Assembly: GCF_006345805.1 (NCBI RefSeq)
Contig: NC_043003.1
Coordinates: forward strand, 61,752,001 to 61,816,000
Direction of reading: 5' to 3'
Source of the DNA: Octopus sinensis
Lineage: Eukaryota
DNA length: 64,000 bases
Numbering within the stretch: position 1 is the stretch's first letter; the number at the start of each line of letters is the position of its first letter. Positions 1 through 53,852 of the stretch are shown piece by piece. The position numbers were made by a program, and so were the translations under genes. Under the pieces are notes generated by a model. That model did not search any database, had not been told where the DNA came from, and was given only the letters and a program-made list of their open reading frames with translations.

Positions 1-339
1 ACTCACTTGTAGCTCCTCAGCCAAAACTATCTGGATGAAATCCACTCAATCACACGCCAGATTTTACCATAACGATAAATACACGTGTGGTTCAATTGAT
101 TACATCCGACGTTATAATTCAAATGCCCCTACCAACAGCGCGCCAAACTTTCACGGAAACAAATACTACATTTAGAAATAAATGTAGCATAATTATAATT
201 AATTAATAAGGGTGAGAGAATTAGATACTAATTTAATAGTATACCTATTCAACACCAAGTGGCCCGTGCCCCAGAGAAACCTGGATTATTATAAAGAGAA
301 ACATGATTTATTTATAATATTGTATAACATATTATAATA

Positions 340-512
340 TGTTATTGTAAAAAATATTATAATATATAAAATATAATTATATATATATATATATATATAT
401 ATATAAATATATAAATATATATATATATAAATATATATATATATATATAAGTACTATATATATATATTATATATATATATATATATATATATATATAAGT
501 ATATATATATAC
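340..512. repeat. (TA)n microsatellite
   Basis: Imperfect TA dinucleotide run; similar runs at 1660-1847, 2242-2780, 3270-3610, 6368-6457, 17046-17102, 29990-30170. Confidence 0.95.
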
Positions 513-1659
513 TCTTTTATTCTTTTACTTGTTTCAGTCATTTGACTGCGGCCATGCTGGAGCACCGCCTTTAGTCGAGCAAATCGACCCCGGGACTTAT
601 TCTTTGTAAGCCCAGCAGTACTTATTCTATCGATCTATTTTTGCCGAACCGCTAAGTGACGGGGACGTAAACACACCAGCATCGGTTGTCAAGCAATGCT
701 AGGGGGACAAACACAGACACACAAACACACACCATACATCATCATCATCATCATCATCATCATTTAGCGTTCGTTTCCATGCTAGCATGGGTTGGACGGT
801 TCAACTGGGGTCTGGGGAGCCCGAAGGCTGCACCAGGCCAGTCAGATCTGGCAGTGTTTCTACAGCTGGATGCCCTCCTAACCCACGCCAACACTCCGAG
901 AGTGTGTAGTGGGTGATTTTATGTGCCACCGACACAGGTGCCAGACGAGGCTGGCGAACGGCCACGCTCGGATGGTGTTTTTATGTGCCACCGACACAGG
1001 TGCCAGACGAGGCTGGCAGACGGCCACGCTCGGATGGTGTTTTTATGTGCCACCGACACAGGTGCCAGATGAGGCTGGCAGGTGCCAGACGAGGCTGGCA
1101 GACGGCCACGCTCGGATGGTGTTTTTATGTGCCACCGACACAGGTGCCAGATGAGGCTGGCGGACGGCCACGATCGGATGGTGTTTGTTACGTCCCCAAA
1201 GCACGGAGGCCAGTCTATGCGGTACTGGCTACGGCCACGTTCGGATGATTTTCTGTGTGCCACCGGCACTGGTACCACAAAGATACAAATTCCATTTATG
1301 TTCATCTATTTTGATTTGTTTTGATTTGATTTGATTTTCACTTGCCTCAACAGGTCTTCACAAGTGTCACTTGCCTCAACAGGTCTTCACAAGTGTCACA
1401 AGAAGGAAGGTATGCACAGGTGGACTGTCTACGTCGCCGGGTCTTCGGATGGTGTCTTTATGTGCCACCGACACAGTTGCCAGATGTGGCTGGCGAACGA
1501 CAGGCTTCTTTCAGTTTCCGTTACCAAATCCACTCACAAGGCATTGGTCGGCCCGGGGCTATAGCAGAAGACACTTGCCCAAGATGCCACGCAGTGGGAC
1601 TGAACCGGAACCATGAGGTTGGTTAGCAAGCTACTTACCACACAGCCACTCCTGCGCCT
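511..1659 (-). mobile_element. tRNA-derived SINE (family A), split by a nested insertion
   Basis: 3' half at 511-730 and 5' half at 1497-1659 are the reverse complement of the intact copy at 1848-2241; the break lies in the internal CA/TA microsatellite. Confidence 0.9.
737..1497 (-). mobile_element. RTE-LINE 3'UTR-derived non-autonomous retroposon
   Basis: (GAT)n tail and terminal CATGCTAGCATGGAAA-type motif shared with the RTE at 12565-14143; ~60-nt internal tandem repeats; near-identical inverted relative at 51367-52837. Confidence 0.85.
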
Positions 1660-1847
1660 ATATATATATATATATATATATATATATATATATAAATATA
1701 TATAATATATAATTATATATATATATTTATATATATATATATATATTTATATATATTATATATAATATATATTTATATATATATATATATATATATATAT
1801 ATATTTATATATATATATATATTTATATATATATATATATATATATA

Positions 1848-2241
1848 GGCGCAGGAGTGGCTGTGTGGTAAGTAGCTTGCTAACCAACCACATGGTTCTG
1901 GGTTCAGTCTCACTGCGTGGCATCTTGGGCAAGTGTCTTCTGCTACAGCCCCGGCCGACCAATGCCTTGTGAGTGGATTTGGTAGACGGAAACTGAAAGA
2001 AGCCCGTCGTATATATGTATATGTGTGTTTGTGTGTCTGTGTTTTCCCCCCCAAATCGTGACAACCGATGCTGGTGTGTTTACGTCCCCGTCACTTAGCG
2101 GTTCGGCCAAAGAGACCGATAGAATAAGTACTGGGCTTACAAAGAATAAGTCCCGGGTCGATTTGCTCGACTAAAGGCGGTGCTCCAGCATGGCCGCAGT
2201 CAAATGACTGAAACAAGTAAAAGAGTAAAGAGAGTAAAGAG
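1848..2241 (+). mobile_element. Full-length tRNA-derived SINE (family A)
   Basis: A-box-like TGGCTGTGTGG, B-box-like GGTTCAGTC, central CTTGGGCAAGTGTCTTCT domain, internal microsatellite and (AAAGAGT)n-like tail; more than 10 related copies in the window. Confidence 0.9.
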
Positions 2242-2780
2242 AATATATATATATATTATATATATATTTATATATATATATATATATATATTTATATATA
2301 ATATATATATATATATATATATATATATATATATTTATATATATATATATATATATATATATATATATATATTATATATAATATATATATATTTATATAT
2401 ATATATATATTTATATATATGTATATTTATATATATATATATATATATTTATATATATGTATATTTATATATATATATATATATATTATATATATATATA
2501 ATATATATATATATATATATATATATATATATATATATATATATATATATATATATTTATATATATATATATAAATATATATAATATAAATATATATATA
2601 TATATATATATATATATATATCATCATCATCATCATCATCGTTATATATAAATATATATATATATAAATATATATATATATATAAATATATATAAATATA
2701 TATATATATATATATAAATATATATATATATATATATAATATATTTATATATATATATATTTATATATAATATATATATA

Positions 2781-50846: not shown

Positions 50847-50914
50847 ATATATATATATATATAAGCAATAATAAATCTCTGAACGAGATGTAAACAGTAA
50901 CTGCATGACAATGT

Positions 50915-51307
50915 AAGGTATACTAGCCATCTCAATATGGCTAACCACTAAGGGTGGGTGTTACTGTAGCTTGTAGCCTCAGGAGATCATCGTCTCCAGC
51001 TGGTTTTAGGCACACTTTATGTGCCCTTATGGTATTTGCAAAGGGAGGTCATCCCTCCCTCGTCAACCTAAGTGATACGCACGGACTGCAGTTTCTAGGT
51101 ATTTGCCTGTCTTCGGCATACAGCAATCACCGGTTGTCCGTGCGTATCACTTAGGTTGACGAGGGAGGGATGACCTCCCTTTGCAAATACCATAAGGGCA
51201 CAGAAAGTGTGCCTAAAGCCAGCTGGAGAAGATGATCTCCTGGGGCTACAAGCTACAGTAACACCCACTCTTAGTGGTTAGCCATATTGAGATGGCTAGT
51301 ATACCTT
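50915..51307. repeat. Long palindrome (172-bp arms, 49-nt spacer)
   Basis: 50915-51086 mirrors 51136-51307 with few mismatches; abuts (TA)n. Confidence 0.95.
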
Positions 51308-51366
51308 TTATATATTTATATATATATATATATATATATATATATATAATTATATATATATATATA

Positions 51367-52837
51367 TGTGCCGGTGGCACATAAAGACACCATCCGAAGA
51401 CCCGGCGACGTAGTCAGTCCACCTGTGCATACCTTCCCTCTTATGACACTTGTGAAGACCTGTTGAGGCAAGTGTGTGACACTTGTGAAGACCTGTTGAG
51501 GCAGAGGCAAGTGTGTGACACTTGTGGAGACCTGTTGAGGCAAGTGTGTGACCCTTGTGAAGACCTGTTGAGGCAAGTGAAAATCAAACCAAATCAAAAT
51601 AGATGAACATCAATGGAATTTGTATCTTTGTGGTTCCAGTACCGGTGGCACACAAGAAAACCATCCGAACGTGGCCGCAGCCAGTACCGCATCGACTGGC
51701 CTCCGTGCTGTGGGCACAACAAACACCATCTGATCGTGGCCGTTCGCCAGCCTCATCTGGCACCTGTGTCGGTGGCACATAAAAACACCATCCGAAGACC
51801 CGGCGACGTAGTCAGTCCACCTGTGCATACCTTCCCTCTTATGACACTTGTGAAGACCTGTTGAGGCAAGTGTGTGACACTTGTGAAGACCTGTTGAGGC
51901 AGAGGCAAGTGTGTGACACTTTGTGAAGACCTGTTGAGGCAGAGGCAAGTGTGTGACACTTGTGGAGACCTGTTGAGGCAAGTGAAAATCAAATCAAATC
52001 AAATCAAAATAGATGAACATCAATGGAATTTGTATCTTTGTGGTACCAGTGCTGGTGGCACACAAGAAAACCATCCGAACATGGCCGTAGCCAGTACCGC
52101 ATCGACTGGCCTCCGTACTGTGGGCACGCAACAAACACCATCCGATCGTGGCCGTTCGCCAGCCTCATCTGGCACCTGAGTCGGTGGCACATAAAAACAC
52201 CATCCGAAGACCCGGCAAGACTAGTCAGGCCATAACCCGTGGCCCCTACCTGGGACGTAGTCAGTCCACCTGTGCATACCTTCCTTCTTGTGACACTTGT
52301 GAAGACCTGTTGAGGCAAGTGAAAATCAAATCAAATCAAAACAAATCAAAATAGATGAACATCAATGGAATTTGTATCTTTGTGGTACCAGTGCCGGTGG
52401 CACACAAGAAAATCATCCGAACGTGGCCGTAGCCAGTACCGCATAGACTGGCCTCCGTGCTTTGGGGACGTAACAAACACCATCCGATCGTGGCCGTCCG
52501 CCAGCCTCATCTGGCACCTGTGTCGGTGGCACATAAAAACACCATCCGAGCGTGGCCGTCTGCCAGCCTCGTCTGGCACCTGTGTCGGTGGCACATAAAA
52601 ACACCATCCGAGCGTGGCCGTTTGCCAGCCTCGTCTGGCACCTGTGTCGGTGGCACATAAAATCACCCACTACACTCTCGGAGTGGTTGGCGTTAGGAAG
52701 GGCATCCAGCTGTAGAAACACTGCCAGATCTGACTGGCCTGGTGCAGCCTTCGGGCTCCCCAGACCCCAGTTGAACCGTCCAACCCATGCTAGCATGGAA
52801 AACGGACGCTAAATGATGATGATGATGATGATGATGA
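51367..52837 (+). mobile_element. Multimeric RTE-3'UTR-derived retroposon
   Basis: Three ~400-bp units starting at CATCCGAAGACCCGGC (51391, 51789, 52201), then the RTE terminus and (GAT)n tail. Confidence 0.9.
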
Positions 52838-53337
52838 CACACACACACACATATATACATATATGATCATCATCATTATCATCGTTTAACATCCATCTGC
52901 CATGCATGCATAGGTAGTACAGTTGACAGGAACCAGCCAGGTAGAAAAACTACCCTAGGCTGGTGTTTCTGTTTTGGCAGGGATTTTACGGCTGGATGCC
53001 CTTCCTAACACAGAGTGGACTCAGTGGCAGGGTAACCAAGTAACTTGCAAGACAAGGAATTATGTATATATATATATATATATATATATATATATATACA
53101 TATTGTGTGTGTCTCCTTGTGACTGAGTGTGTCCTTCCACAATCACTTGACAACTGATGGTGGGTGTTTACATCCCCGCAACTTAGAAGTTCAGCAAAAG
53201 AGACCAATAGAATAAGTACTAGGGTCACAAAGAATAAGTTCTGGGGTCAATTTCTTCAACTAAAACCTTTTAAAACAGTGCACCAGTAAAAGAATATATA
53301 TATATATATATATATATATATATATATATATATATAT

Positions 53338-53852
53338 CAGTAATAATATAGGGTGAAATTAATTAATTTGGAATAATCATTAATTTCACCAAGTAGATTT
53401 CGGCATGTAAAAGCCCCATTCGAGGAAAGTTTAAGTAATACTAAGTAATTAAGGGTTTAGCAACGATTTGCCTCACCACACACCGAATTTAGAAATAGCA
53501 GTCAAAGAGTTATAGCTATTCTTTCTACTAAAAGGGAGATCTCAGTAAAACCACAGCGCTTGAAAGGCAAACACAGACAGGCAAGAGAGAAAGAAATGAC
53601 GACAATCGATCATACAATATTAAGTCACCTATGGACGTACGTTTCGAAATTAAGTTTTAGGAAAGCATAAGAATTAGATAATTATGTCTTACCCAACTTC
53701 TTTTCTCATCAGCGTAGGACACTACAATTATGAATAATTGTATATTAAATTTCGAGGTACGAGATCTCCCTTTTAGTAGAAAGAATAGCTATAACTCTTT
53801 GACTGCTATTTCTAAATTCGGTGTGTGGTGAGGCAAATCGTTGCTAAACCCT
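53338..53852 (-). mobile_element. Hammerhead-bearing Penelope-like terminal element with inverted duplication
   Basis: ~91-bp near-perfect arms 53452-53542 and 53761-53852 enclose a hammerhead; (TA)n on both sides. Confidence 0.85.
53628..53718 (-). ncRNA. Type I hammerhead ribozyme
   Basis: CCTACG-CTGATGA-G(long stem II)C-GAAAC-GTAC-GTC-CATAGG; intact core, palindromic stem III (ACGTACGT), predicted cleavage between 53634 and 53633. Confidence 0.85.

What the first reader, a model, noticed from the sequence alone, without database searches (positions are those of the whole stretch)
209..53394. Covarying terminal hairpin and ACCCT-like end shared by sequence-unrelated fold-back elements
Seen: four elements with unalignable bodies share one terminal layout, AG-[stem-loop]-RRGT/GGT(GGC): GGTG...CACC-AAGTGGCC (211-264), GGTA...TACT-GGTGGCTAGC (33162-33200, imperfect), GATAAGATCGTTA/TAACGATTTTATC-AAGTGGCCAGC (50636-50685) and GGTGAAATTAAT/ATTAATTTCACC-AAGT (53352-53394). 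The stem sequence changes while pairing is kept. On the hammerhead-sense strand of the 53.3-kb element this is the 3' end, reading ...ACCCT then TA-rich DNA. Arms or ends at 22411, 36244, 50831, 51303 and 53848 also stop at or near ACCCT/ACTCT/ACCTT. Inference: a conserved cis signal for RT recognition or priming, defining a superfamily that inserts at TA tracts. I do not know of a description of it.
Basis: partly seen in the sequence, partly recalled or inferred. Interest (0 to 1): 0.75.

Follow-up and report, generated by a model that had tools for sequence, protein, structure and literature searches.

The report
Shared 3' RNA fold of retrozymes
The four hairpins are ends of small, protein-free jumping elements that carry a hammerhead-ribozyme motif, and many such families keep one predicted RNA fold around the two fixed points where their copies stop, so this fold is likely the handle by which a borrowed Penelope-type enzyme starts copying them.

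Summary
The four motifs are real and belong to four families of ORF-less, hammerhead-bearing tandem repeats (units about 470-584 bp): non-LTR retrozymes with Penelope-type insertions. Copies end at two fixed sites 82-131 nt apart and join (TA)n. Resolvable head-to-head insertions pair one end of each kind (31 of 41 pairs; 10 unresolved). The shared feature is larger than reported: a long-range helix (P1) enclosing one hairpin, a GCCACUU-like linker and a terminal hairpin, both hairpins followed by CU(U/A) and an AU-rich tract. The stem base covaries (G-C 15, A-U 14 of 31 types). P1, outside the search model, pairs with its own partner better than with swapped partners (0/20000 permutations). 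A covariance model gave 12 hits in 500 kb of unselected DNA, 8 beside (TA)n (background 5.7%). Corrections: ACCCT is half stem and not enriched alone; ends lie up to about 24 nt beyond it; the 209-264 hairpin is internal in this copy; 22411 is antisense; 36244 and 51303 are other families; the families look distantly related. No coding partner with the fold was found. This scan noted two-armed retrozymes on other DNA of this genome. I found no paper on the cross-family fold.

The parts
1..294 (-). Family F1 retrozyme copy (unit about 534 bp), 5'-truncated at 294; continues about 200 nt left of the window and ends there at site B
9..20 (-). Start of the F1 type I hammerhead core (CUGAGGA); the rest lies left of base 1
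209..263 (-). F1 linker (257-263), terminal hairpin P3 (211-256) and CT (209-210); internal in this copy, terminal in 12 other copies
27569..27748 (-).
33144..33376 (-). Family F2 arm ending at site A; P1 strands 33294-33301 and 33196-33203; decayed terminal hairpin 33162-33190
33368..33497 (+). F2 inverted arm ending at site B in (TA)n
50634..50758 (-). Family F3 arm ending at site A; site-B hairpin 50735-50751, P1 3' strand 50682-50689, terminal hairpin 50636-50674
50756..50849 (+). F3 inverted arm ending at site B; hairpin 50817-50833 followed by CT and an AT-rich tract
53335..53764 (-). Family F4 arm (unit about 584 bp) ending at site A; P1 53478-53487 with 53399-53408, site-B hairpin 53454-53477, terminal hairpin 53352-53390
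53634..53712 (-). F4 type I hammerhead with long stem-loop II and palindromic stem III; this copy has one stem I mismatch that the family lacks
53761..53852 (+). F4 inverted arm ending at site B right after hairpin 53827-53850 and CT
22316..22698 (.). Different element (hammerhead on + near 22607, tRNA-like head, inverted arm matching at 22335-22415); ACCCT at 22411 is antisense at the 5' junction; not part of the superfamily
35579..36248 (.). Head-to-head 3' ends of a GIY-YIG-coding Penelope-type family (tail about 45 nt); not part of the superfamily
50864..51307 (.). Head-to-head arms of another hammerhead family (tail about 50 nt); not matched by the model

Best explanation
The four motifs are the outer end of a predicted RNA domain of about 160-200 nt that is shared by many families of ORF-less, hammerhead-bearing tandem repeats, and this domain likely serves as the loading and start signal for a borrowed Penelope-type reverse transcriptase. 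Shown: each family has a type I hammerhead motif upstream, two fixed 3' ends (B and A), (TA)n junctions, partial tandems and head-to-head arms that pair A with B. Predicted from folding and covariation: helix P1 closes a junction that holds the site-B hairpin and abuts, through a GCCACUU-like linker, the terminal site-A hairpin; each hairpin is followed by CU(U/A) and an AU-rich tract. Inferred: tandem transcripts are cut by the ribozyme into units (probably circles); an RT-endonuclease dimer binds the two hairpin-CU modules that P1 holds together; each nicked strand of a (TA)n target primes cDNA in the AU-rich tract after one module; the two cDNAs, one from A and one from B, meet 5'-truncated to give the fold-back. 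The families likely descend from one ancestor whose sequence drifted while the fold was kept. The enzyme donor is not identified.
For: Ends: 45 of 47 terminal F4 alignments stop at B (19) or A (26) and are followed by TA repeats; F1 14 B and 15 A of 32; F2 21 A and 5 B of 37. Pairing: 31 of 41 head-to-head pairs are A+B, none A+A, 10 with an unassigned end. Tandem units. Hammerheads. Terminal stem: base pairs 1-3 kept in 31 of 31 non-redundant types, pair 2 G-C 15, A-U 14, G-U 2; Watson-Crick 29 against 15.4 in permutations (0/10000); CT follows in nearly all (C 29, T 30 of 31); 24 double-sided changes against 10.1 on the 17-row alignment (0/500). P1 was not in the model: strong helix in 14 of 28 types with its own partner, 16.7% with swapped partners, 3.6% with shuffled (0/20000 permutations); on a sequence-only alignment of 19 types 81% of cells paired, 17 double-sided changes against 5.5 (0/500), slid registers 19-43%. 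Unselected DNA: 12 hits at E<0.01 in 500 kb, 8 directly before (TA)n against 5.7% background. Literature: a PLE RT starts internally at two sites in a stem-loop, cuts both strands of AT-rich DNA and is modelled as a dimer (PMC11167929); PLE tails are often at one end only (PMC8557442, PMC3846280); animal retrozymes are proposed PLE passengers (PMC7229834; 10.64898/2026.07.22.740005).
Against: No coding element with this fold was found: the model did not mark the 3' ends of Hydra-like, Neptune-like or other GIY-YIG elements in 100 loci, junction similarity of Hydra-like tails equalled shuffles (16.9 against 16.0, sd 1.1), and no endonuclease remnant ran continuously into a model hit. Tails are 82-131 nt, not the published 30-40 nt. 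The types are related, so covariation counts are not independent events and the shuffle values are not probabilities. The hairpin base was in the model, so its pairing among model hits is partly circular, and I picked the 14-19 P1 rows from types that showed the helix. RNAalifold predicted no pairs on the raw 19-row alignment, where six rows are out of register. 14 of 28 types showed no strong P1 (several are truncated or fold-back copies). Loci for the pairing count were chosen for having an A end, so B+B could not be sampled. No binding, cleavage or priming was measured.
Confidence: 0.62

Rival explanations
1. The elements are PLE-mobilised retrozymes, but the conserved fold serves another step of the RNA's life (circle ligation, stability, export, or keeping the hammerhead free); the start sites are set only by nearby AU-rich tracts that pair with TA targets.
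For: Ends fall in AU-rich tracts and blend into (TA)n over a spread of positions. Retrozyme circles are described as highly self-paired (PMC7229834, passages). No coding PLE shares the fold.
Against: The units hold many other AU-rich tracts that are rarely used as ends (F4: 2 of 47 elsewhere). Both used sites follow a hairpin and CU(U/A) in the families folded. In the one PLE tested in vitro, initiation was at a stem-loop without target homology (PMC11167929).
Confidence: 0.22
2. The shared motifs are only remnants of common ancestry; AT-rich palindromes arise easily and the fold is not under selection.
For: Families share motif blocks in the same order; the loose descriptor is no commoner than in shuffles; upper stems vary freely in length and sequence.
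Against: Double-sided changes at five of seven P1 positions among 14 types with 97 of 98 cells paired (rows chosen for showing the helix) and at the stem base; own partners beat swapped partners; the register is sharp.
Confidence: 0.08
3. The repeats are SINE-like passengers of a LINE whose RT recognises a 3' stem-loop, or fold-back DNA transposons with terminal inverted repeats.
For: 3' stem-loop recognition is known for some SINE-LINE pairs (recalled, not checked); no PLE donor found; the inverted arms resemble fold-back elements.
Against: Two internal start sites, A+B head-to-head arms of variable length, partial tandems and read-through past the hairpin match published PLE anatomy; the coding Hydra-like PLEs of this genome show the same two-end pattern (39 ends at 40-79 nt and 23 at 180-239 nt after the ribozyme, of 89). 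The two ends of one insertion are different points of the unit, not terminal inverted repeats.
Confidence: 0.08

Closest known systems
Metazoan non-LTR retrozymes (Cervera and de la Pena 2020, PMC7229834, passages read; Li, Clavereau and Pollet 2026, bioRxiv 10.64898/2026.07.22.740005, parts 1-3 of 5 read)
   Same: ORF-less, AT-rich tandem units, each with a type I hammerhead motif with palindromic stem III; dispersed monomers, dimers and arrays; proposed PLE passengers.
   Different: Units of about 470-584 bp (170-400 nt for invertebrates in PMC7229834; 51-972 bp in the preprint), long stem-loop II. The parts I read describe species-specific sequences and report no fixed ends, no A+B arms and no 3' fold shared across families. 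The preprint finds pLTR relatives for Xenopus retrozymes; I found none here.
PLE 'tail' and internal initiation (Frangieh et al. 2024, PMC11167929, parts 1-2 of 4 read; Craig et al. 2021, PMC8557442, passages and section 11; Arkhipova et al. 2013, PMC3846280, passages)
   Same: Two start sites that define an optional tail, initiation at a stem-loop inside the RNA, AT-rich or (TA)n targets, inverted 5'-truncated arm, tail at one end only.
   Different: Tail 82-131 nt instead of 30-40 nt; no ORF; both start sites follow a hairpin-CU module inside one covarying domain seen in 31 sequence types. The published stem-loop is described for one element; its figure (S1B) was not visible to me.
Hydra-clade PLEs (PMC8557442, section 11); Hydra-like coding elements of this genome
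   Same: (TA)n targets, hammerhead with long stem-loop II and palindromic stem III, two ends, inverted arms. The local proteins have DKT, an RW motif, CxxC and CxH and lack CCHH, as described for Hydra.
   Different: They encode RT and endonuclease; their tail is about 160-170 nt and is not matched by the model or by junction alignment, so they are a candidate donor only.

Membership tests
Non-LTR retrozyme | Type I hammerhead motif in each repeat unit | tested here: met
   F1 and F4 by structure scan in most units; F2 and F3 by eye in consensus and long copies. Rfam found no hammerhead in the window at E<=1, probably because of the long loop II.
Non-LTR retrozyme | Short tandem units, monomers to multimers | tested here: met
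   F4 about 584 bp, F1 about 534 bp with an array on contig C4, F2 about 470 bp; F3 read-through past site A in two loci.
Non-LTR retrozyme | No protein-coding capacity, low GC | tested here: met
   No frame of 170 aa or more within the units in 121 loci; model hits 19-40% GC.
Non-LTR retrozyme | Self-cleavage and abundant circular RNA | not testable with these tools
   No run on record as RNA was listed; assembled contigs cannot show circles or strands.
Penelope-like element, insertion type | Partial tandems and inverted 5'-truncated arm | tested here: met
Penelope-like element, insertion type | Optional tail between two start sites, at one end only | tested here: met
   Two end clusters; 31 A+B and 0 A+A of 41 pairs. 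Length 82-131 nt, longer than the published 30-40 nt.
Penelope-like element, insertion type | Bias for (TA)n targets | tested here: met
Autonomous PLE | ORF with telomerase-like RT and GIY-YIG endonuclease | tested here: not met
   None in the units and none continuous with a model hit.
Derivative of a known PLE pseudo-LTR | Sequence or fold shared with a coding PLE of the same genome | tested here: inconclusive
   Not found in 100 loci picked for RT or endonuclease, nor with filters off on 14 loci with Hydra-like ends; only some PLE lineages of a 2.7-Gb genome were sampled.
Fold-back or MITE-type DNA transposon | Fixed terminal inverted repeats at both ends of a fixed-length element | tested here: not met
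   Arms differ in end point and length; many copies have no inverted arm.

The most novel reading that the evidence does not exclude
Dozens of sequence-divergent retrozyme families share one bipartite RNA platform: two hairpin-CU modules clamped by helix P1, each loading one half of a Penelope RT-endonuclease dimer. This would be the first defined, portable cis element for PLE retrotransposition, loosely like a template-boundary hairpin of telomerase RNA; it would explain the tail and the head-to-head insertions, and it would be read in trans by an enzyme whose own RNA has a different sequence.
Probability: 0.42. Interest if true: 0.78.

Novelty: new variant of a known kind. Interest (0 to 1): 0.58.

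Why it matters
How Penelope-like RTs, the closest relatives of telomerase RT, recognise their RNA and choose two internal start sites is open; the papers read call for mechanistic work. A fold kept by compensatory change across many natural passengers gives a ready set of substrates and a map of mutations to test. It also bears on whether animal retrozymes are moved by PLEs, so far argued from co-occurrence and pLTR similarity. The model finds a large, divergent superfamily (12 hits in 500 kb, roughly 30,000-110,000 tails genome-wide if the sample is typical) that plain sequence search splits into unrelated repeats.

Tried and rejected
Rfam: 112 matches at E<=1, all below gathering score, none a hammerhead. 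Pfam did not name the PLE proteins; they were recognised by motifs and by comparison with PMC8557442 section 11. Loose hairpin descriptor: not above shuffles in unselected DNA. Bare ACCCT/ACTCT/ACCTT before TA runs: not enriched. Hydra-like elements as donor: a visual likeness of their GCTACCCTGGT junction did not survive the model (best E about 5 at a tail) or shuffles. A Neptune-like element with a model hit on each side proved to be a local duplication with an independent neighbour. Consensus folding on a raw alignment gave no pairs. Metagenome scan: 3 exact matches, 49-57% GC, one weak model score (16.6 bits), no TA context; treated as chance. Expression: no RNA holder listed; contigs of four runs guessed to be RNA hold pieces of F4 but show neither strand nor circle; not used as evidence. 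The model could not be run over the whole genome, so the density rests on a 500-kb sample and no shuffled-DNA control for the model was run. Literature searches for a cross-family fold found none; subscription papers, Repbase and Dfam notes were not searchable, bioRxiv supplements were closed, and the three held supplements of PMC11167929 had no match. PMC4209133 (part 1 of 4) and PMC6962438 (passages) were also seen and add only the hammerhead background. Four of 50 model hits were dropped before the pair counts because the parser could not anchor them; 2 of the 31 kept rows had the 3' anchor misplaced, and one row was re-anchored by hand.

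
Full report
Setting. The window is G000:C7:61752001-61816000 of a 2.7-Gb, AT-rich animal genome crowded with microsatellites and repeats. I call the four families F1 (209-264), F2 (33162-33200), F3 (50636-50685) and F4 (53352-53394). 'Sense' is the strand that carries the hammerhead; for all four listed motifs it is the minus strand.

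Observation. The motifs are present as described. In sense they read linker, stem-loop opened by G(G/A)T and closed by A(C/T)C, then CT and an AT-rich tract. Three fold as hairpins; the F2 copy is decayed but its family folds. A loose descriptor is above shuffles in the window (5 against 0.7) but not in 500 kb of unselected DNA (6 against 0-6), and ACCCT before a TA run is at background (6 of 377). The short layout is thus weak alone; the larger context is what is specific.

What the elements are. Genome searches gave 2393, 2047, 929 and 1560 first-look candidates for F4, F3, F2 and F1, of which 40 each were scored. F4, F1 and F2 occur as tandem units of about 584, 534 and 470 bp; F3 reads through its end into a next unit. 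Each unit has a type I hammerhead motif with a long stem-loop II and a palindromic stem III (scan for F1 and F4; by eye for F2 and F3). No unit holds a long frame. These are the published marks of non-LTR retrozymes (PMC7229834, passages; bioRxiv 10.64898/2026.07.22.740005, parts 1-3 of 5).

Ends. Sense 3' ends cluster at two sites, B and A, 82-131 nt apart and 139-182 and 221-284 nt after the predicted cleavage site. F4: 19 at B, 26 at A and 2 elsewhere of 47 terminal alignments. F1: 14, 15 and 3 of 32. F2: 5, 21 and 11 of 37. The F3 set was biased by its query. The junctions run into (TA)n within about 24 nt of the stem. Of 41 head-to-head pairs 31 are A+B, none A+A, and 10 have an unassigned end; loci were chosen for an A end. 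In the window F2, F3 and F4 are each one A arm and one B arm, so 50831 and 53848 are B ends. The F1 copy passes site A near its truncated 5' end and stops at B about 200 nt left of the window. This is the PLE pattern: an optional tail at one end, inverted 5'-truncated arms and (TA)n targets (PMC8557442; PMC3846280), which in vitro reflects two internal RT start sites at a stem-loop (PMC11167929). Earlier notes of this scan reported the same two-armed pattern for other families on other pieces of this genome; I counted it after reading them.

The shared domain. Two genome patterns built from the four families gave 182 matches against 0 in the reversed control, nearly all F3, and 52 against 4, including new families. 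A descriptor over all fetched loci added more. A covariance model from 17 tails gave 12 hits at E<0.01 in 500 kb of unselected DNA; one was a training sequence and two belong to a training family; 8 lie directly before (TA)n against 5.7% background, one is inside a tandem, one precedes (GT)n and two are one partial tandem without TA. From 50 hand-picked hits, 46 parsed and 31 were under 82% identical; they may collapse to about a dozen lineages. Stem pairs 1-3 hold in 31 of 31; pair 2 is G-C in 15, A-U in 14 and G-U in 2, so 'ACCCT' becomes 'ATCCT' together with GGT to GAT; C and T follow the stem in 29 and 30 of 31. This count is partly circular because the model scores those pairs.

Helix P1 is the less circular evidence. 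The strand just before the linker pairs with a block 80-113 nt upstream, outside the model and usually after a GCTATTT-like stretch. Among 28 types with enough upstream sequence a strong helix formed in 14 with the own partner, in 16.7% of swapped pairs and in 3.6% of shuffles; no permutation of 20000 reached the observed mean. In 14 types that show it, 97 of 98 cells of the 7-bp core pair and five positions change on both sides. On a sequence-only alignment of 19 types 81% of cells pair, with 17 double-sided changes against 5.5 and 19-43% pairing in slid registers. RNAalifold found nothing on that alignment, in which six rows are out of register. Relatedness among types inflates all these counts. 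P1 encloses a hairpin that is followed by CU(U/A/C) and an AU-rich tract, and site B lies in that tract or, in F2, after a second small hairpin. Both start sites therefore have the same local layout, and P1 would hold them close.

Related or convergent. Post-ribozyme regions align at z 5.5 for F3-F4, 2.1-2.6 for three pairs and 0.6-1.3 for two, with blocks in the same order. Common descent with a conserved fold is more likely than convergence, so 'sequence-unrelated' overstates it.

The other positions. At 22411 ACCCT is the antisense of AGGGT in a hammerhead loop at the inverted 5' junction of a tRNA-headed element. 36244 is the outer end of a family whose longer copies encode a GIY-YIG C-terminus. 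51303 is the inner end of a different hammerhead family with a tail of about 50 nt. The model does not match them. They share PLE anatomy, not the domain.

Donor. The genome holds abundant coding PLEs: Hydra-like (9229 candidates; DKT, RW, CxxC, CxH, no CCHH) and Neptune-like or other GIY-YIG types (5029 candidates). The Hydra-like elements also end at two sites in (TA)n. None carried the domain: model hits in 100 such loci were separate insertions, Hydra-like tails scored at E about 5 or worse and their junctions matched no better than shuffles.

Mechanism. Shown: hammerhead motif, tandem units, two ends, TA targets, A+B arms. Predicted: P1, the two hairpins and the linker. Inferred: ribozyme processing to units or circles; binding of a PLE RT-endonuclease dimer to the two hairpin-CU modules; nicking of both strands of (TA)n; priming in the AU-rich tract after each module; joining of two truncated cDNAs head to head; extra laps giving tandems. 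I put the class at about 0.88 and the whole model at 0.62. The main rival is that the fold serves RNA circle biology while starts are set by AU tracts (0.22).

Novelty. Retrozymes, the tail and stem-loop initiation are known. Ten literature searches found no description of a covarying 3' domain shared across retrozyme families; the library lacks most subscription papers and repeat databases, and unseen supplements may bear on this. Verdict: new variant of a known kind, interest 0.58.

Noticed in passing
window 22440-22698: Element with a tRNA-like head, a hammerhead motif near 22607 and two alternative 3' ends in head-to-head arms; several more copies in unselected DNA.
   Followed up: partly
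window 27569-27748: Extra F4 fragment ending at site B, 91% identical to the family consensus.
   Followed up: yes
L152-L171 (for example G000:C4:9305500-9315000): Large Hydra-like PLE group with long open frames, asparagine-rich linkers without the CxCx5C motif, and a tail of about 160-170 nt; PMC8557442 reported only a few molluscan Hydra families.
   Followed up: partly
L372, L374, L381 (for example G000:C1:207472500-207480500): Neptune-like elements with a second frame of up to 479 aa upstream of and overlapping the 781-aa RT-endonuclease frame, a long repetitive 3' region and a minimal hammerhead with a U3-A8 core.
   Followed up: no
L152 oriented 3186-3436: A PKD-like domain stretch runs in frame into a 5'-truncated Hydra-like ORF (Pfam PF22352, E 3.9e-05, below cut-off); probably a chance junction with a host exon.
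   Followed up: no
G000:C4:9517815-9538830 (L108-L120): Array of about 30 F1 units over some 18 kb, ending at site B on one side and site A on the other.
   Followed up: partly
window 51115-51307 family (L217-L241): Many copies carry CCGAAGA in place of the CUGAnGA core while others keep CTGAAGA; related short-loop families in L098, L114 and L187.
   Followed up: no
L011, L067, L154, L224 flanks: Further hammerhead families with long stem-loop II and short 3' parts before (TA)n, not matched by the model.
   Followed up: no
window 900-1254 and 52407-52679: Near-identical (99-100%) inverted copies of a GC-rich tandem SINE-like repeat 51 kb apart.
   Followed up: no
window 22720-22850, 38041-38133, 4324-4439: Other short fold-backs that gave only sub-threshold miRNA matches in Rfam.
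   Followed up: no
window 59253 onward, + strand: 182-codon frame that looks like a Tc1-type transposase fragment (judged by eye).
   Followed up: no
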